Under the pieces are notes generated by a model. It was not told the DNA's origin, searched no databases, and saw only the letters and a program-made list of their open reading frames with translations. 64,000 nt of DNA from Escherichia coli (GTDB lineage Bacteria > Pseudomonadota > Gammaproteobacteria > Enterobacterales > Enterobacteriaceae), in assembly GCF_003334315.1 (NCBI RefSeq), contig NZ_QOWR01000009.1, one strand, 5' to 3'. Below, piece after piece: positions 21,013-57,400 of the stretch. The stretch's first letter is position 1. Each line of letters begins with the position of its first letter. Both the position numbers and the translations under genes were made by a program.

Positions 21013-22374
21013 ATGTTTAAACCGGAACTCCTTTCCCCGGCGGGAACGCTGAAAAATATGCGTTACGCTTTCGCTTATGGCGCAGATGCTGTTTATGCGG
21101 GCCAGCCGCGTTACTCCCTGCGTGTGCGCAACAACGAATTCAACCACGAAAATCTTCAGCTCGGCATCAATGAAGCCCACGCGCTGGGGAAAAAGTTTTA
21201 TGTCGTGGTCAACATTGCACCGCACAACGCCAAGCTGAAAACCTTTATCCGTGACCTGAAACCGGTGGTGGAAATGGGGCCGGATGCGCTGATTATGTCC
21301 GATCCAGGGCTGATTATGCTGGTGCGTGAGCACTTCCCTGAAATGCCGATCCACCTCTCGGTGCAGGCTAACGCCGTAAACTGGGCGACGGTGAAATTCT
21401 GGCAGCAAATGGGCCTGACCCGCGTGATCCTCTCTCGCGAGCTGTCGCTGGAAGAGATTGAAGAGATCCGCAATCAGGTGCCGGATATGGAGATCGAGAT
21501 CTTCGTTCACGGCGCACTGTGCATGGCCTACTCCGGTCGCTGCCTGCTCTCTGGCTATATCAACAAGCGCGATCCGAACCAGGGTACCTGCACCAACGCC
21601 TGCCGCTGGGAGTACAACGTCCAGGAAGGGAAAGAAGATGACGTTGGCAACATCGTACACAAGTACGAGCCGATTCCGGTGCAAAATGTTGAGCCGACGC
21701 TGGGTATCGGCGCGCCAACCGACAAAGTGTTTATGATCGAAGAAGCCCAGCGTCCGGGCGAGTATATGACCGCGTTTGAAGATGAGCACGGCACTTACAT
21801 CATGAACTCGAAAGATCTGCGCGCCATCGCCCATGTAGAACGCCTGACCAAAATGGGCGTGCATTCGCTGAAAATCGAAGGCCGTACTAAATCTTTCTAC
21901 TATTGCGCACGCACCGCACAGGTTTACCGTAAAGCTATCGATGACGCCGCTGCGGGCAAACCGTTCGATACCAGCCTGCTGGAAACTCTGGAAGGTCTGG
22001 CGCATCGTGGCTATACCGAAGGTTTCCTGCGTCGTCATACTCACGACGATTATCAGAACTACGAATACGGTTATTCAGTTTCTGACCGCCAGCAGTTTGT
22101 TGGTGAGTTTACCGGTGAGCGCAAGGGGGACCTCGCGGCGGTAGCGGTGAAAAATAAATTCTCCGTTGGCGACAGCCTTGAGCTGATGACGCCGCAAGGC
22201 AACATTAACTTTACCCTTGAGCACATGGAAAACGCCAAAGGTGAAGCGATGCCGGTCGCACCAGGCGATGGTTATACTGTGTGGCTCCCGGTCCCGCAGG
22301 ATCTTGAGCTCAATTACGCTCTGCTGATGCGTAATTTCTCCGGGGAAACCACGCGTAACCCACACGGTAAGTGA
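21013..22374 (+). CDS. yegQ: Peptidase U32-family protein (453 aa), YegQ/TrhP-type tRNA-modification protein
   Basis: U32 family signature region (HGALCMAYSGRCLLSGY). Confidence 0.88.
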   Translation: MFKPELLSPAGTLKNMRYAFAYGADAVYAGQPRYSLRVRNNEFNHENLQLGINEAHALGKKFYVVVNIAPHNAKLKTFIRDLKPVVEMGPDALIMSDPGLIMLVREHFPEMPIHLSVQANAVNWATVKFWQQMGLTRVILSRELSLEEIEEIRNQVPDMEIEIFVHGALCMAYSGRCLLSGYINKRDPNQGTCTNACRWEYNVQEGKEDDVGNIVHKYEPIPVQNVEPTLGIGAPTDKVFMIEEAQRPGEYMTAFEDEHGTYIMNSKDLRAIAHVERLTKMGVHSLKIEGRTKSFYYCARTAQVYRKAIDDAAAGKPFDTSLLETLEGLAHRGYTEGFLRRHTHDDYQNYEYGYSVSDRQQFVGEFTGERKGDLAAVAVKNKFSVGDSLELMTPQGNINFTLEHMENAKGEAMPVAPGDGYTVWLPVPQDLELNYALLMRNFSGETTRNPHGK

Positions 22375-22458
22375 TTAATTTCGATTATTTTTCCCGGATG
22401 GAAAATTCTTAGAAACCGATCACATACAGCTGCATTTATTAAGGTTATCATCCGTTTC

Positions 22459-22545
22459 GCTGAAAAACATAACCCATAAAATGCTAGCTGTACCAGGAAC
22501 CACCTCCTTAGCCTGTGTAATCTCCCTTACACGGGCTTATTTTTT
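22459..22545 (+). ncRNA. cyaR: CyaR (RyeE) Hfq-dependent sRNA
   Basis: Begins GCTGAAAAACATAACCCATAAAATGCTAGCTGTACCAGGAACCACCTCCTTAGCC and ends in a hairpin plus TTTTTT; matches the CyaR sequence as I recall it. Confidence 0.8.
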
Positions 22546-22703
22546 ATGCATAAGCCCTATCCCTGGTCACCGTCTTCCATTGACCACATCGATAGAATCT
22601 CCCTTCATAGCACGATGCCTTTCACGTAACGGCATCGTGCTCGCACAGGTTCCGGCTAAGCACAACCAGAACGCACATATTTGACGCTTACCAAAAAATA
22701 TTC

Positions 22704-23021
22704 TCACTCTCCACATTTGAATGTCAGACGAGCGACACCATGTAATCCTACACCTTCTGTCTTCAGCTCAACTATTTGCATTTTTTTGCCCTGAGTAACA
22801 CAGAAATGGGCTGCATCATTTTTTACTATATTTTCTGCACCAGATATTCTACCCCTGGCTAAAGAAGCTTCGGCTTCGGTGTAGTATTGGTTATCGAGTT
22901 TACGCTGAATATTACTTTTATATGCAAGGCCAAATTTACCGATACTTGTCTCATCATTATGCACAGCACAACCAGACATAAGAAAAACACTAATTAATGA
23001 TATAGCAGCTATTTTATTCAC
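22704..23021 (-). CDS. yegR: Small lipoprotein-like protein YegR (105 aa from GTG; an upstream ATG at 23036 would add 5 aa)
   Basis: Signal peptide with lipobox-like LMSGC; AT-rich gene. Confidence 0.75.
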   Translation of the reverse strand: MNKIAAISLISVFLMSGCAVHNDETSIGKFGLAYKSNIQRKLDNQYYTEAEASLARGRISGAENIVKNDAAHFCVTQGKKMQIVELKTEGVGLHGVARLTFKCGE

Positions 23022-23434
23022 CTCACCTTCCCCCATTAAATACCAACGACACTCTCTAGTGTTTAAGTATAATAATGGCCGATCATTATAATTGAATAGG
23101 ATTATAATAAATGTTTTGTACAACATTTCCTACATAAGTAGGAATTACAGACTCAGAGGCCCTTCCGGGTAACCCTATGGGAGCTTTAATATATTTGGAA
23201 TAGTATATTGAAGATGCCACTGTTTAGTTGAATATTAGATATTTGCTCTTTTTTCAAATTTACCGGTGGCTACCGTTAACATTCACTGCCCCCATTGCAA
23301 GCTCCTGGTGGTAACAACTGAATTACCCATGCTTGAACTGACTTTTTATCCTCCGACTTTCATCCTGTTCTGACTCCACCTTTTGTTTTCTGCTCTACAC
23401 TATCTACAGACCAATCATAAAGGCACATACGATC

Positions 23435-24334
23435 ATGGCAGAATTTCCCGCCAGCTTACTGATTCTTAATGGCAAAAGTACTGACAATCTACCCTTGCGC
23501 GAAGCAATTATGCTGTTGCGTGAGGAAGGAATGACGATCCATGTGCGGGTCACCTGGGAGAAAGGTGATGCCGCACGATTTGTAGAGGAGGCCCGGAAGT
23601 TGGGCGTCGCAACGGTGATTGCTGGAGGTGGCGATGGCACCATTAATGAAGTTTCTACGGCGTTGATTCAGTGTGAGGGGGATGACATACCCGCGCTGGG
23701 AATTTTACCATTAGGAACCGCCAATGATTTTGCCACCAGCGTAGGGATTCCTGAGGCACTGGATAAGGCGCTGAAACTGGCAATTGCCGGTGACGCCATT
23801 GCGATAGATATGGCGCAGGTCAACAAACAAACCTGTTTTATTAATATGGCGACAGGCGGATTTGGGACGCGTATTACCACAGAAACGCCGGAAAAATTAA
23901 AAGCCGCGCTGGGTAGCGTCTCTTACATCATTCATGGCTTAATGCGTATGGATACTCTGCAACCGGACCGTTGTGAAATCCGCGGTGAAAACTTTCACTG
24001 GCAAGGTGACGCCCTGGTCATTGGTATTGGTAACGGGCGTCAGGCCGGTGGCGGTCAGCAATTGTGTCCGAACGCGTTAATTAACGATGGCTTGCTGCAA
24101 CTGCGCATTTTTACCGGCGATGAAATACTTCCGGCTCTCGTATCAACCTTAAAATCTGACGAAGATAACCCGAATATTATCGAAGGCGCTTCGTCGTGGT
24201 TTGATATTCAGGCACCACACGACATCACCTTTAATCTTGATGGCGAACCGTTGAGTGGGCAAAATTTTCATATTGAAATACTTCCGGCAGCGTTGCGTTG
24301 CCGTCTGCCACCAGATTGCCCGCTTTTACGTTAA
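23435..24334 (+). CDS. yegS: Lipid kinase YegS (299 aa), diacylglycerol-kinase catalytic-domain family
   Basis: DAGK_cat signature (GGDGTINEV). Confidence 0.9.
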
Positions 24335-30452: not shown

Positions 30453-31484
30453 TCAGCTGACAACATTCAGGCTCGGAATAAGTTGTGGCGGTATCTCAAT
30501 GCGACGCAGGGTGGTATCGCCAGAATCCACAATTTCAAACACTTTTTCGAGCATGGCGGGTACATCCTGACGAACCATATCGATATCGTGCCCGAGCAGA
30601 GAAACAAAAGGATCCCAGTCAAAACACCCCATTGGCGGTTGATTGGCTCCCGTCTGCCCGGTTTGCGCCAGCCAGCGAACCACCCCTTCAAGAGAGATTG
30701 TCGAGTTGACGAATAACCCGTGAAGCGATACTGCAGAGCTTTGGAAGACCTCTTTCAGTAATCCCTCTACGCGAGCAGAAGAGTAGCCGGTAACCAGTTT
30801 ATGTTCATCCGGTACGGTTATCCCCAAAGCCTGATGGGCATCGACAAAACCACATAAACGTTCAGCAGTATTGTTATCGCTTATACGTCCACCGACAAAA
30901 GTCAAAGGTGCCAGCTTGCCATAGCGTTTCTGGCTGTTGGCTAAAATTCTTTCCGTCAATAATTTCGCCCCCATATAGTTATCAGAAATGATCGACGGCG
31001 CCAGTGTTCCCGGCAGATCCAGATTCAGTGTCGGTACGCCCGCTTGCTGGCACATTTGGGCTATTTTATCCGGTTGAGTCGCTCCGGTAGCAATGACCCA
31101 ATCCACCTGCCAGGAGAGCATGGCGCGAGCAGCCTCAATTTCCAGTTCTGGCTGTCGCCGCGTACAGGTGATGATTGGCAGTAATCCTCTGGCACGCGCC
31201 ATCTCTTCAAATTTTTCGGCAATCGATCCAAAGTATCGGTTGTCATATTTCGGCACAATCATGCCAATAACGTTGGATTTTTTACTGCGCAGTAAACTTG
31301 CCTGCCGATTAATGGCATATCCCTGCTCTTCCGCAATACGGGTGACCTTCTCAGCCAGCTTTGCGCTGATGCGTCGCTTTTTCCAGTTGCCATTCAAAAT
31401 AGCGCTTACCGCACTGGCAGAAACGCCGGTTAATTCTGCCAGGTCGTAAATGGTCGTTTTCTTCGTTTTCTCAACGCGTGTCAC
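30453..31484 (-). CDS. rbtR: LacI-family transcriptional regulator (343 aa), probable ribitol operon repressor
   Basis: LacI-type HTH (TIYDLAELTGVSASAVSAILNG) and periplasmic-binding-protein-like effector domain; divergent from the ribitol operon and convergent with the other regulator. Confidence 0.75.
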   Translation of the reverse strand: MTRVEKTKKTTIYDLAELTGVSASAVSAILNGNWKKRRISAKLAEKVTRIAEEQGYAINRQASLLRSKKSNVIGMIVPKYDNRYFGSIAEKFEEMARARGLLPIITCTRRQPELEIEAARAMLSWQVDWVIATGATQPDKIAQMCQQAGVPTLNLDLPGTLAPSIISDNYMGAKLLTERILANSQKRYGKLAPLTFVGGRISDNNTAERLCGFVDAHQALGITVPDEHKLVTGYSSARVEGLLKEVFQSSAVSLHGLFVNSTISLEGVVRWLAQTGQTGANQPPMGCFDWDPFVSLLGHDIDMVRQDVPAMLEKVFEIVDSGDTTLRRIEIPPQLIPSLNVVS

Positions 31485-35386: not shown

Positions 35387-35408
35387 AAAACGAAACGCAT
35401 CAGGCACT

Positions 35409-35434
35409 CATCCTCTCCCTCATGGGAGAGGATG
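35409..35434. terminator. Hairpin (11-bp stem) between convergent rbtT and fbaB, at the right edge of the island
   Basis: CATCCTCTCCC-tcat-GGGAGAGGATG. Confidence 0.5.
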
Positions 35435-35442
35435 ATTTCACA

Positions 35443-50380: not shown

Positions 50381-50416
50381 AAAGCCGAAATCATTTATAT
50401 AAATGATTTCGGCTTT
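50381..50416 (-). terminator. Rho-independent terminator after yehE (perfect 18-bp inverted repeat)
   Basis: AAAGCCGAAATCATTTAT / ATAAATGATTTCGGCTTT, with a T-run on the minus strand. Confidence 0.7.
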
Positions 50417-54404: not shown

Positions 54405-57400
54405 ATGAGACACTTTATCTATCAGGACGAAAAATCACATAAATTCTGGGCGGTGGAGCAACAGGGAAACGAGTTGCATATCAGTTGGGGAAAAGTTGGC
54501 ACCAAAGGGCAAAGTCAGATAAAAAGTTTTTCAGATGCTGCGGCAGCGGAAAAAGCGGAACTTAAGCTGATTGCGGAGAAGGTGAAGAAGGGGTATGTGG
54601 AGCAAGCGAAGGATAATTCTTTGCAACCTTCCCAAACGGTAACGGGCTCTCTCAAGGTAGCGGACTTATCCACCATTATTCAGGAACAACCCTCTTTCGT
54701 AGCAGAAACCCGTGCGCCTGACAAAAATACAGATGCTGTTTTACCGTGGCTGGCGAAAGATATTGCTGTCGTTTTTCCGCCCGAAGTTGTACACACCACG
54801 TTAAGTCATCGCCGCTTTCCCGGAGTTCCTGTTCAGCAAGCAGACAAATTGACCCAATTACGTCGCTTAGCCTGTAGTGTGTCGCAACGGGATAATAAAA
54901 CAGCCACATTTGACTTCAGCGCCTGTTCTTTAGAATGGCAAAACACCGTCGCCCAGGCGATCAGTCAGATCGACGGCCTGAAAACAACACAGTTACCATC
55001 ACCAGTAATGGCTGTACTCACGGCACTTGAAATGAAATGCACAAGATATAAAGTGCGTGAGGATGTTATGGATCAGATCGTCCAGGAAGGCGGTCTGGAA
55101 TATGCTACTGATGTAATAATACACCTTCAACAGATTGATATTGAATGGGATTATGCGAATAATGTCATTATTATTCTGCCGTCTGGCATTGCACCTAGCT
55201 ACTTGGAGCAATATTCCAGATTTGAATTACGCCTACGTAAACATTTATCACTGACGGAAGAGTCTCTCTGGCAAAAATGTGCACAAAAACTTATTGCCGC
55301 AATTCCACATATTCCAGAATGGCGGCAACCATTAATTGCTTTGTTATTACCCGAAAAACCAGAAATTGCACATGAAATTGCCCAGCGTCTACTGGGGCAA
55401 AAAAAATTACCCTCGCTTGAGTGGTTAAAAATAGTGGCGACTGATGAGCACATTCTTGCCTCATTAGAAAAATATCACGAACCATATGCCATTTTTGATG
55501 ATTACTATTGTGGTGCGATATGGTCAGCCACCGTATTACAGGAGCAAGGTGTTGCAGCCCTGCCCCGATTTGCTCCCTATGCCGCAAGTGACTACTGCGC
55601 CGATGTGTTGCGTCATATCAATCATCCGTTCGCATTGACACTGCTTATACGTGTAGCCGGGCAAACTAAACGCTGTCACGATCGGATGACGAAAGCCATT
55701 GCTGCGTTCCCACATGCAGCAATGGCGGCACTGACGGAACTTCTTGGGCAAAAAGAAGAGAACAGTTGGCGCATTATGCTAATGACAATGCTTATCTCAC
55801 AACCAGCACTGGCAGAACAGGTCATTCCCTGGCTCTCGACACCCGCAGTTGCCGTACTGAAATCATGCCAGCAACAACTGACACAGCCCTCAAACCATGC
55901 CAGCGCCGATCTACTGCCAGCCGTAGTAGTCTCCCCTCCCTGGCTTTCGAAAAAGAAAAAATCGCCGATTCCGGTGCTGGATTTAGCGCCATTAGGCATT
56001 GAGCCAATCTGTTATCTGACAGAAGAAATCAGTAATCAACTTTTGGCGAAATATATCTGGTATTCAAAACACATCACGGTTAGCCATGAAGAAAGTACTA
56101 CCAACCTGTTGGCAAGGATGGGTTTTCAACGACGGATCGCTGGTACATATATTAAAGCTCCCGAAGCGGTAGTTGAGGCATGGCTAAATGAAGATTATTC
56201 AACCTTACTAAGTGAATTTAAGGTGTTTCATTCACCTACCGGGCATTATTGGCAGTTGGGGATTTTGACAACATTGCCGCTGGAGAAAGCAGTAAAAGCA
56301 TGGAATGCCCTTACCCTATCTCCACATACCGATACCGAATACTCCATGTTACATTTTGGACTCAAAGGGTTACCTGGGTTAGTAAACTCACTTGCACGCT
56401 ATCCACAAGAAGCCTTGCCCATCACGAATTACTTCGCAGCGAGTGAGCTGGCTCCTGCCGTCGCCCGTGCCTTCAACAAACTGAAAACGCTACGCGAAAA
56501 CGCCCGTAGCTGGCTGTTGAAATACCCGGAACATGCCCTTACCGGCCTGCTGCCTGCGGCGCTCGGCAAAGCCGGTGAAGCACAGGATAACGCCCGCGCT
56601 GCCTTGCGTATGCTTACCGAAAACGGTCATCAGCCATTACTGCAAGAAATCGCCCGACGTTATAACCAGCCGGAAGTAACCGATGCGGTGAACGCTCTGC
56701 TTGCGCTCGATCCCTTAGATAATCACCCGACAAAAATCCCCACTCTTCCGGCCTTTTATCAGCCATCGCTCTGGACGCGCCCGGTATTAAAAGCAAATGC
56801 CCAATCACTGCCAGATAGCGCCCTCCTCCACCTCGGTGAAATGCTCCGCTTCCCTCAGGAAGAGGCTCTGTATCCGGGATTATTGCAGGTGAAAGACGTC
56901 TGTTCCGCCGACTCACTGGCGGGATTTGCCTGGGATCTGTTTACCGCCTGGCAGACCGCTGGCGCGCCGTCGAAAGAGAGTTGGGCGTTCACTGCGTTAG
57001 GCGTTCTCGGTAACGATGACACCGCCCGCAAACTGACGCCATTAATACGCGCCTGGCCTGGTGAATCCCAGCATAAACGCGCCACCGTTGGGTTGGATAT
57101 TCTCGCTGCTATCGGTAGTGATATCGCCCTTATGCAGCTTAACGGCATCGCCCAGAAACTGAAATTCAAAGCATTACAGGAGCGGGCAAAAGAAAAAATT
57201 GCCGACATTGCCGAGAGCCGCGAACTCACGGTGGCGGAGCTTGAAGATCGGTTAGCACCGGATCTCGGTCTGGATGATAACGGTTCGCTGCTGCTGGATT
57301 TTGGCCCACGGCAGTTCACCGTCAGCTTTGATGAAACCTTAAAACCGTTTGTGCGTGATGTTTCCGGCAGCCGCCTGAAGGACCTGCCCAAACCGAACAA

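What the first reader, a model, noticed from the sequence alone, without database searches (positions are those of the whole stretch)
22546..22703. Short cyaR-yegR spacer with an 11-bp-stem palindrome and no prophage remnant
Only ~160 bp separate cyaR from yegR. As I recall, K-12 carries a P2-like remnant (ogrK/yegZ) at this point, so this strain may show the unoccupied site or a clean deletion. The spacer contains AGCACGATGCC-(11 nt)-GGCATCGTGCT at about 22610-22642 with no following T-tract, a possible attachment-site relic or protein-binding site.
Basis: partly seen in the sequence, partly recalled or inferred. Interest (0 to 1): 0.3.

Follow-up and report, generated by a model that had tools for sequence, protein, structure and literature searches.

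The report
Empty P2 site with prophage fossil
The short gap between cyaR and yegR is the normal, unoccupied state of the phage P2 integration site in E. coli; its hairpin is a single-copy leftover inside an about 800-bp fossil of a much older P2-like prophage, not the attachment site and not a REP repeat.

Summary
cyaR ends at 22542 and yegR stops at 22704. A perfect 11-bp inverted repeat lies at 22609-22619 / 22631-22641, with no T-tract after it.

K-12-type strains carry about 630 extra bp here (ogrK plus a truncated D gene). That junction occurs in only 359 of 5,426 complete E. coli genomes, so the short interval is the common state.

The real P2 attB is the cyaR terminator. Window 22519-22545 is identical to the 27-bp P2 attP core, and prophage junctions break exactly at its edges.

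The palindrome lies 64 bp beyond the core. It is single-copy per genome and matches no Rfam family. It shows no compensatory change.

The spacer is not virgin host DNA:
- 22546-22592 is homologous to the P2 attP P arm.
- 22650-22699 is homologous to the cos-proximal right end of phage 186.
- A decayed second att copy lies at 23292-23347, just before sequence that in Klebsiella-type genomes directly follows cyaR.

So 22546-23347, including yegR, looks like a fossil P2-family prophage. The palindrome sits at a seam inside it. Its own origin is unresolved, and I judge it most likely a neutral scar. This is a modest finding.

The parts
22457..22542 (+). cyaR sRNA gene
   Evidence: Rfam RF00112, 100.7 bits, E 5.8e-20, full length.
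22519..22545 (.). P2 attB core (AATCTCCCTTACACGGGCTTATTTTTT): the loop, 3' stem and T-tract of the cyaR terminator. This is the live attachment site.
   Evidence: 100% identical to P2 24355-24382, annotated attP / Int core. Prophage-occupied genomes break at query 140 and 166, which are window 22519 and 22545. Lysogen junctions show int-side phage DNA, then the core, then this spacer.
22546..22592 (.). Relic of a P2-family attP P arm (the ogr-side arm that carries the Int arm sites). Strongest in 22562-22592. The IHF-site region is mostly deleted in this allele.
   Evidence: Local alignment to the P2 P arm scores 38, against 14.6 +/- 2.2 in 2000 dinucleotide shuffles, none reaching it. Other E. 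coli alleles keep about 13 more nt and are 83% identical to the P2 P arm over 59 nt. Absent downstream of cyaR in Klebsiella-type genomes.
22593..22608 (.). Linker of unknown origin. It contains a 10-nt repeat of the first 10 nt of the core (AATCTCCCTT, 22596-22605).
   Evidence: Repeat reported. 21 of 5000 shuffles score as well, but the K-12-type allele reads AATCCTCCTT, so this is probably chance.
22609..22641 (.). The palindrome: 11-bp perfect arms with an 11-nt loop. It sits at the seam between the two phage-derived fragments.
   Evidence: Single-copy per E. coli genome. In IMG/VR it is found only in this same chromosomal context, 78 of 78 loci. Homology between this window and the divergent Escherichia locus L088 stops exactly at 22641/22642. 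No significant similarity to the P2 or 186 arm, terminator or cos flanks.
22650..22699 (-). Relic homologous to the cos-proximal right end of phage 186 (about 60-108 nt before the right genome end). It includes a second hairpin at 22648-22671 that pairs well only on the minus strand.
   Evidence: Score 33, against 15.2 +/- 2.3 in 2000 shuffles, none reaching it. The orthologous L088 segment continues to the 186 cos cut site (score 70 against 18.7 +/- 2.3; BLAST E 1e-3 to many Peduoviridae genome ends). Minus-strand fold.
22704..23021 (-). yegR (105-aa small lipoprotein, Pfam PF27694), transcribed towards the cos-like relic and cyaR. It is the only intact ORF inside the bracketed island.
   Evidence: ORF and annotation. 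The family is narrow. In Cedecea and a Klebsiella sp. its homologue is not next to cyaR. Klebsiella-type yegQ-cyaR-yegS loci lack it.
23292..23347 (.). Decayed attR: about 25 nt of P2 P'-proximal (int-side) sequence plus a degenerate copy of the 27-bp core (23321-23347).
   Evidence: Aligns end to end with the P2 attP int-side 57-mer, 38 of 56 identical with 1 gap. It beats all 3000 shuffles under two scoring schemes and all but 6 of 3000 under a third. K-12-type and L088 copies have decayed at different positions.
23348..23434 (+). Ancestral cyaR-yegS spacer and yegS upstream region.
   Evidence: Homologous to the about 70 bp that directly follow cyaR in Klebsiella-type genomes; 11 of 1000 shuffles score as well.

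Best explanation
**What is shown.** The interval is the common, unoccupied state of the P2 integration site at the 3' end of cyaR. The attachment site is the 27-bp core inside the cyaR terminator (22519-22545). P2-type Int recombines there, and the phage copy of the core rebuilds the terminator.

The 161-bp spacer is not original host DNA. It is the left end of an about 800-bp fossil of an older P2/186-family prophage (22546-23347). The fossil is bracketed by the intact core on the left and a decayed core on the right.

**What is inferred.** Deletions removed nearly everything. What remains is:
- a fragment of the ogr-side attP arm;
- a fragment next to the phage's right cos end;
- yegR, possibly a former cargo gene;
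- the int-side att junction.

The palindrome lies at the seam between the arm fragment and the cos fragment. I judge it most likely a neutral scar, either left-over unidentified phage DNA or made at a deletion joint.

It plays no part in integration, because attB needs only the core and arm sites act on attP. If transcribed, it would fold into a stable hairpin in the yegR 3' UTR. I see no evidence that this is selected.
For: **The site**
- The core is identical to the annotated P2 attP core.
- Junction break points in other genomes fall at 22519 and 22545.
- The short interval is the majority state: 4,563 of 5,426 genomes hold it in one place. Only 359 have the K-12 remnant junction.

**The fossil**
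- P-arm homology beats all 2000 shuffles, and longer alleles are 83% identical to P2.
- 186 right-end homology also beats all 2000 shuffles.
- The divergent Escherichia locus L088 carries a different cassette at the same place. It matches P2 core+IHF+Int arm (84%, E 1e-10) and the 186 cos end.
- A decayed attR at 23292-23347 beats all 3000 shuffles in two of three scoring schemes (6 of 3000 reach it in the third). It is followed by the Klebsiella-type cyaR-yegS spacer.
- Klebsiella-type genomes have yegQ-cyaR-about 70 bp-yegS, with no arm-like sequence.
- Decay by deletion is still happening at this locus, as in K-12 and strain E308.

**The palindrome as a passive scar**
- It is single-copy and specific to this locus.
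- It has no T-tract and no Rfam match.
- 5 of the 22 arm positions are polymorphic, a rate similar to the flanks. No change is compensatory. Pair 10 is disrupted in 16 of 94 loci (C-A in 15, C-T in 1), with pair 11 a G-T wobble in 9 of them.
- It has been lost outright in strain E308.
- The two K-12 Term-seq list excerpts I retrieved show the cyaR 3' end and then no 3' end until gatD (PMC7815308 supplement).
Against: - The 49-bp segment holding the palindrome (22593-22641) matches nothing phage-like, so its phage origin rests on position only.
- A perfect 11-bp stem is rare: 5 in 64 kb against 0.4 expected.
- The lower 9 bp carry no common polymorphism (minor variants in 1-2 of the 94 sampled loci). 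That is compatible with weak selection.
- That sample was enriched for perfect arms, because 78 loci were fetched with an exact-arm pattern.
- yegR is probably poorly expressed under the Term-seq conditions, so the missing 3' end is weak evidence.
- No YegR homologue was found in a genuine phage genome. The PHROG hit probably comes from prophage calls that overshoot into the flank. So 'yegR was phage cargo' rests on the att bracket alone.
- The decayed attR is only 68% identical to P2.
Confidence: 0.6

Rival explanations
1. The palindrome works as the 3'-end hairpin of the yegR transcript. It would act as a U-tract-less pause site, a Rho-assisted terminator or an exonuclease barrier. It would stabilise yegR mRNA and keep convergent transcription from running antisense into cyaR, 64 bp further on.
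For: - It lies 62 nt downstream of the yegR stop on the yegR strand, and folds at -24.6 kcal/mol with z = -5.
- A second adjacent hairpin (22671 to 22648) pairs well only on the minus strand, through G-U pairs.
- The genes are convergent, and nothing else terminator-like lies between them.
- The lower 9 bp of the stem are nearly invariant in the sample.
- The spacer is kept in 5,418 of 5,426 genomes.
Against: - No U-run follows the stem.
- No minus-strand 3' end appears between cyaR and gatD in the retrieved K-12 Term-seq list excerpts.
- There is no compensatory substitution, and a C-A mismatch is fixed in a large lineage.
- Strain E308 has lost it.
- The neighbouring hairpin is inherited from the 186-like cos region rather than evolved for yegR.
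Confidence: 0.22
2. The dyad (11 bp - N11 - 11 bp) is an operator for a dimeric DNA-binding protein of host or phage origin.
For: The two-fold symmetry is perfect. The half-site centres are 22 bp apart, about two helical turns. It lies between two genes.
Against: - It occurs once per genome, and no second copy or half-site family was found.
- It lies downstream of both flanking genes, not in a promoter.
- Arm polymorphisms are tolerated.
- It resembles none of the annotated P2 Int, IHF or Cox sites.
Confidence: 0.06
3. The palindrome is itself an attachment-site relic or the target of another integrase.
For: It lies in a hot spot for P2-family integration, inside att-derived sequence.
Against: - Every occupied site examined breaks at the 27-bp core, not at the palindrome.
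- The palindrome never flanks a prophage on both sides.
- The only breakpoint abutting it (22641/22642) is a lineage difference between E. coli and locus L088, not an insertion junction.
Confidence: 0.04
4. The palindrome is a REP/BIME-type repeated extragenic palindrome.
For: It is an intergenic, GC-rich imperfect-to-perfect hairpin between convergent genes.
Against: There is at most one place per genome in 5,426 genomes. All 78 IMG/VR occurrences are this same locus.
Confidence: 0.01

Closest known systems
P2 attachment site at the cyaR (ryeE) terminator: the preferred P2 site, locI of E. coli C as I recall from Barreiro and Haggard-Ljungquist 1992 (from memory, not held in the library)
   Same: The 27-bp core is identical to P2 attP. 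Prophages in other E. coli genomes sit exactly here. This window shows the unoccupied form.
   Different: None for the core. The point added here is that the DNA flanking the 'empty' site is itself old phage arm sequence.
The K-12 P2 remnant (ogrK plus yegZ, a truncated gene D)
   Same: Same locus and same mode of decay. A deletion runs from inside the prophage to the distal core and leaves the ogr-side end next to cyaR.
   Different: The K-12 remnant is younger: it is about 630 bp, still has an ORF, and is confined to 359 of 5,426 genomes. The fossil described here is older. It is present in 5,418 of 5,426 genomes and keeps only non-coding scraps plus yegR. The K-12 remnant is nested to its left.
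P2 attP P arm (Int arm-type sites and IHF site between ogr and the core)
   Same: 22546-22592 aligns with it in the right position and orientation next to the core. Identity is 79% in this allele and 83% in longer alleles.
   Different: The IHF-site region is largely deleted here, and one of the two arm repeats has degenerated. It sits on the bacterial side of attB, where arm sites have no known role.
cos-proximal right end of phage 186 and other Peduoviridae
   Same: 22650-22699 aligns with about 186 nt 30517-30565. In locus L088 the alignment runs to the cut site.
   Different: The cohesive-end sequence itself is absent from the window (and partly deleted in L088), so it cannot serve as a packaging site.
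Hairpin-only 3' ends of Rho-dependent transcripts (stable stem, no U-tract)
   Same: A stable GC-rich stem lies downstream of a stop codon with no U-run.
   Different: No mapped 3' end and no covariation. The resemblance is in shape only.

Membership tests
Unoccupied P2 attB | Core sequence identical or near-identical to the 27-bp attP core | tested here: met
   Window 22519-22545 (with base 22546) is 100% identical to P2 24355-24382, annotated attP / Int core.
Unoccupied P2 attB | P2-type prophages in other genomes are inserted exactly at this core | tested here: met
   Matches break at query 140 and 166, which are window 22519 and 22545. Lysogen junctions read int, then P', then core, then spacer. 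ogrK-D-tail genes follow cyaR.
Unoccupied P2 attB | No phage genes between the flanking host genes | tested here: met
   Only short spurious ORFs lie in 22543-22703. None matches a PHROG family. The identical strain is annotated yegQ-yegR-yegS.
Prophage remnant (P2/186 family) | Direct repeats of the att core bracketing the element | tested here: met
   An intact core lies at 22519-22545. A decayed core plus P'-proximal sequence lies at 23292-23347 and beats all 3000 shuffles under two scoring schemes (6 of 3000 under a third). It is conserved but differently decayed in K-12 and L088.
Prophage remnant (P2/186 family) | Internal sequence homologous to phage DNA in collinear order and orientation | tested here: met
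   The P arm lies next to the left core and the cos right-end fragment lies further in. Orientation is consistent with the P2/186 prophage map.
Prophage remnant (P2/186 family) | Recognisable phage genes | tested here: not met
   No Int remnant by tblastn. YegR has no homologue in real phage genomes. The PHROG hit probably reflects flank contamination.
Prophage remnant (P2/186 family) | Absent from the orthologous site in related genera (an empty site exists) | tested here: met
   Klebsiella-type loci have yegQ-cyaR-about 70 bp-yegS. That 70 bp is homologous to window 23348-23434.
Intrinsic (Rho-independent) terminator | GC-rich stem-loop | tested here: met
   11-bp stem, -21 to -25 kcal/mol.
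Intrinsic (Rho-independent) terminator | U-rich tract immediately 3' of the stem | tested here: not met
   The + strand continues CGCACAGG and the - strand continues ATGAAGGG. The terminator scan does not report it.
REP/BIME repeated extragenic palindrome | Many copies per genome | tested here: not met
   At most 1 place per genome for the 63-nt palindrome query, and at most 2 for the 158-nt spacer.
Structured RNA under selection | Compensatory base-pair changes across relatives | tested here: not met
   Among the 9 palindrome variants there are no double compensatory changes, only wobble or mismatch changes. Diversity is limited to E. coli, so power is low.
Known RNA family (Rfam 15) | Score at or above the family's gathering threshold | tested here: not met
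   The best hits in 22540-22720 score 11-16 bits against thresholds of 43-82.

The most novel reading that the evidence does not exclude
The whole cyaR-yegS island is a domesticated fossil of a P2/186-like prophage. On this reading its cargo gene yegR was kept and its scraps are not inert.

Either of two things would follow:
- The palindrome was exapted as a U-tract-less terminator or insulator that shields CyaR from antisense yegR read-through.
- The P-arm relic matters to P2 itself. In every lysogen it lies directly beyond the int-side junction, recreating a near-complete pseudo-attP (P' - core - P-like arm). It could then alter Int/Cox intasome assembly and so affect P2 integration preference or excision at this preferred site.
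Probability: 0.1. Interest if true: 0.5.

Novelty: new member of a known kind. Interest (0 to 1): 0.27.

Why it matters
As posed, the finding is ordinary. An empty P2 attachment site is the usual state in E. coli, and K-12 is the exception.

The modest added value is stratigraphic. The 'empty' site is really the left junction of a much older, almost erased P2-family prophage that is fixed in E. coli. It shows several layers of integration and decay at one 27-bp target:
- the fossil itself;
- the K-12 ogrK remnant;
- the truncated P2 prophage of strain E308;
- the intact prophages present in other strains.

It also suggests an origin for the orphan lipoprotein gene yegR, and it cautions against treating att-flanking DNA as native host sequence. 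No open question turns on it.

Tried and rejected
**Origin of the palindrome**
- INPHARED blastn of the spacer found only records that include E. coli flank.
- An IMG/VR exact-arm scan found 78 loci, all in the same chromosomal context.
- Local alignments of 22593-22649 to the P2 arm and terminator, and to the P2 and 186 cos flanks, were all non-significant.

**A second core copy at 22596-22605** (10-nt AATCTCCCTT). 21 of 5000 shuffles score as well in this allele. The K-12-type allele reads AATCCTCCTT, so I treat it as probably chance.

**yegR as phage cargo**
- tblastn against phages found only flank-bearing records.
- An IMG/VR profile scan listed its best 80 hits (15 weaker ones were not shown); all are E. 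coli YegR, nearly all at or near contig edges.
- The phrog_21109 hit is probably contamination from overshooting prophage calls.

**The extra 170-240 bp below yegR in E10-type strains and L088.** I tried to show it is a pseudogene of the second lipoprotein gene seen in Cedecea. tblastn was negative and only patchy DNA similarity remains.

**Int remnant inside the island.** None was found.

**Literature**
- No held paper discusses this spacer.
- K-12 Term-seq tables list no yegR 3' end.
- A second Term-seq paper had no supplement held.

**Other checks**
- Looking for the L088 cassette in complete E. coli genomes found only P arms of ordinary P2 prophages.
- Rfam at permissive thresholds returned only noise.

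Full report
**1. The observation**

The window carries yegQ/trhP (21013-22374, +) and cyaR (22457-22542, +; Rfam RF00112, 100.7 bits). It also carries yegR (22704-23021, -) and yegS (23435-24334, +). So 161 bp separate cyaR from yegR.

The inverted repeat AGCACGATGCC-N11-GGCATCGTGCT lies at 22609-22619 / 22631-22641. It occurs once in the window, with none expected by chance. The whole 64 kb holds only five distinct perfect hairpins of at least 11 bp, against 0.4 in shuffles.

As RNA it folds at -21.3 kcal/mol (+ strand) and -24.6 kcal/mol (- strand), with z about -5. No T-run follows it on either strand. The only terminator-like site nearby is cyaR's own.

**2. K-12 and the population**

A 401-bp query across the interval matches 5,424 of 5,426 complete E. 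coli genomes. In 4,563 it is found in one place.

K-12-type genomes carry about 630 extra bp: ogrK and a truncated 'late control D' pseudogene. That specific remnant junction occurs in 359 genomes.

About 860 genomes have larger insertions. Their matches break at query positions 140 and 166, which are window 22519 and 22545.

**3. Where the attachment site really is**

Window 22519-22545 (AATCTCCCTTACACGGGCTTATTTTTT) is 100% identical to P2 24355-24382, which the P2 record annotates as attP and the Int core site. It forms the loop, 3' stem and T-tract of the cyaR terminator.

Lysogen junctions read int-side phage DNA, then the core, then this spacer. On the other side cyaR and the core are followed by the P arm, ogr, D and tail genes.

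The palindrome lies 64 bp beyond the core, on the host side of attB.

**4. What the palindrome is not**

- It is not a REP-type repeat. A 63-nt query finds at most one place per genome. The 158-nt spacer finds at most two and is present in 5,418 of 5,426 genomes.
- It is not a phage element that I can find. All 78 IMG/VR contigs with the exact arms carry it in this same E. coli context, at the overshooting edge of P2 prophage calls.
- It matches no Rfam family, even at E up to 10.

**5. The spacer is not virgin host DNA**

*Left part.* Window 22546-22592 aligns with the P2 attP P arm, the ogr-side arm that carries the Int arm-type sites. The alignment is in the right position and orientation next to the core. 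The local score is 38, against 14.6 +/- 2.2 in 2000 dinucleotide shuffles, none reaching it. This allele lacks most of the IHF-site region. Other E. coli alleles keep about 13 more bases and are 83% identical to the P2 arm over 59 nt.

*Right part.* On its minus strand, window 22650-22699 aligns with phage 186 about 60-108 nt before the right genome end. The score is 33 against 15.2 +/- 2.3, and no shuffle reaches it.

*A divergent lineage.* A divergent Escherichia genome (locus L088, YegR 90% identical) has a different 137-bp cassette between the core and the same right-hand sequence.
- Its core-proximal 72 nt hit P2 core + IHF + Int P arm at 84% (E 1e-10).
- Its distal part aligns with the last about 80 nt of phage 186 up to the cos cut site (score 70 against 18.7 +/- 2.3).
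- BLAST also hits the genome ends of many Peduoviridae.
- Homology between the window and L088 ends exactly at the outer edge of the palindrome, 22641/22642.

**6. The right-hand boundary**

In Klebsiella-type relatives, found through YegQ orthologues, the order is yegQ - cyaR - about 70 bp - yegS. They have no yegR and no arm-like sequence.

In the window, 23348-23434 upstream of yegS is homologous to that 70 bp; 11 of 1000 shuffles score as well.

Immediately to its left, 23292-23347 aligns end to end with the P2 attP int-side 57-mer, which is 30 nt of P'-proximal sequence plus the 27-bp core. 38 of 56 positions are identical with one gap. The score exceeds all 3000 shuffles under two scoring schemes and all but 6 of 3000 under a third. 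The K-12-type and L088 copies of this degenerate core have decayed at different positions, as expected for independent erosion of one ancestral copy.

So 22546-23347 (about 800 bp, including yegR) is bracketed by an intact att core and a decayed one. It holds P-arm and cos-right fragments in the order and orientation of a P2/186 prophage map. I read it as a fossil P2-family prophage that predates the split of E. coli from the L088 lineage.

The live attB is therefore the fossil's left junction, and the K-12 ogrK remnant is a younger layer nested to its left.

Decay by deletion continues at this locus. In strain E308 a P2 prophage is truncated from the baseplate J gene into the spacer as far as window 22655, which removes the palindrome.

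**7. yegR**

yegR sits where 186 and P2 carry accessory genes next to the right cos end, and like 186 orf97 it is transcribed towards cos. Its homologues in Cedecea and a Klebsiella sp. are not linked to cyaR. There they are followed by a second small lipoprotein gene.

No genuine phage encodes a homologue. The full-length hit to phrog_21109 most likely comes from prophage calls that include the flank. 'Former phage cargo' is therefore an inference from the att bracket, not a shown fact.

**8. The palindrome itself**

The 49-bp segment 22593-22641 has no significant similarity to:
- the P2 arm, the ogr terminator or the ogr 3' end;
- the cos flanks of P2 or 186;
- any INPHARED phage.

It lies roughly where P2 has the ogr/F-operon terminator, but the sequences do not align and the U-tract is missing.

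I surveyed 94 loci, which gave 25 spacer alleles and 9 palindrome variants.
- 5 of the 22 arm positions and 4 of the 11 loop positions vary. These rates resemble the flanks (0.16-0.38 per site).
- There are no compensatory double changes.
- The loop-proximal pairs are disrupted in 16 of 94 loci, including the B2-type lineage (pair 10 mismatched in all 16, pair 11 wobbled in 9).
- The lower 9 bp carry only rare variants.
- The sample is biased towards perfect arms, because 78 of the loci were fetched with an exact-arm pattern.

The two K-12 Term-seq list excerpts I retrieved show the cyaR 3' end at 2167199 (+). The next 3' end listed is at 2171800 (-), so none is listed at yegR or the palindrome (PMC7815308 supplement). 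yegR may simply be silent in those conditions.

**9. Mechanism, with confidence**

Shown:
- The site is an unoccupied P2 attB whose core is the cyaR terminator.
- The spacer flanks of the palindrome are phage-derived.
- The palindrome is single-copy and specific to this locus.

Inferred:
- The island is one fossil prophage (about 0.8).
- The palindrome is a neutral scar at an internal deletion seam, with no role in integration (about 0.55-0.6).

The main rival is that it serves as a U-tract-less 3' hairpin for yegR that also protects cyaR from convergent transcription (about 0.2). Operator, att-relic-proper and REP readings are weak or refuted.

**10. Comparison and novelty**

The closest known things are:
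- the P2 attachment site at cyaR, of which this is a member, since all tested features are met;
- the K-12 ogrK/yegZ remnant, which shows the same process but is younger and rarer;
- the P2 P arm;
- the 186 cos-proximal region.

The finding as posed is ordinary. The fossil bracket around yegR is, as far as the held literature shows, undescribed. It is still a new example of a well-known kind of thing, a decayed prophage at an sRNA or tRNA-type attachment site. Interest is low to moderate.

Noticed in passing
window 22696-22704; L002 (strain E10) 1820-1995; L088 3316-3545; L124: B2-type E. coli (E10, NC101-like) and the divergent Escherichia locus L088 carry an extra 170-240 bp directly below the yegR stop. 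This window and K-12 lack it. It shows patchy DNA similarity, including a lipoprotein signal-peptide-like start, to a second small lipoprotein gene that follows yegR in Cedecea and other enterobacteria. tblastn was negative.
   Followed up: partly
L120 (E. coli E308, NZ_CP030281) 1966-2548: A P2-like prophage is truncated by a deletion that runs from the baseplate J gene into the spacer, to the equivalent of window 22655. It removes int, the distal core, the P-arm relic and the palindrome. This is a third, independent decay state at the locus.
   Followed up: partly
window 22596-22605 and 22519-22528: The first 10 nt of the att core (AATCTCCCTT) are repeated 77 bp downstream, just before the palindrome. 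About half of the sampled alleles read AATCCTCCTT instead, so this is probably chance (21 of 5000 shuffles score as well).
   Followed up: yes
window 22648-22671 (minus strand): A second hairpin (GUUCUGGUUG-UGCU-UAGCCGGAAC) pairs well only on the yegR strand, because of G-U pairs. It is inherited from the 186-like cos-proximal region, where the same hairpin exists.
   Followed up: partly
This looks like an alternative sugar-alcohol island at a known variable spot.
   Followed up: no
L088 3716-3742; L124; L113: In the divergent Escherichia locus, and in some other loci, the cyaR terminator 3' stem reads ACACAGGC (perfect pairing). The window reads the P2-identical ACACGGGC, which gives a G-U pair. 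So the core differs by one base from P2 attP in those lineages.
   Followed up: no
IMG/VR loci L131-L209 and phrog_21109: Dozens of IMG/VR 'viral' contigs end exactly at yegR, and a PHROG family consists of YegR. Prophage-boundary overshoot at this site has put a host-flank gene into phage protein resources.
   Followed up: partly
window 7018-7047, 35408-35435, 50381-50416, 55695-55726: These are the four other perfect hairpins of at least 11 bp in the window. They were not examined and are probably terminators.
   Followed up: no
L127/L128 4625-5219; L125 4526-5129: Some E. coli lineages carry a ParE/ParD toxin-antitoxin pair upstream of yegQ, where this window has yegP.
   Followed up: no
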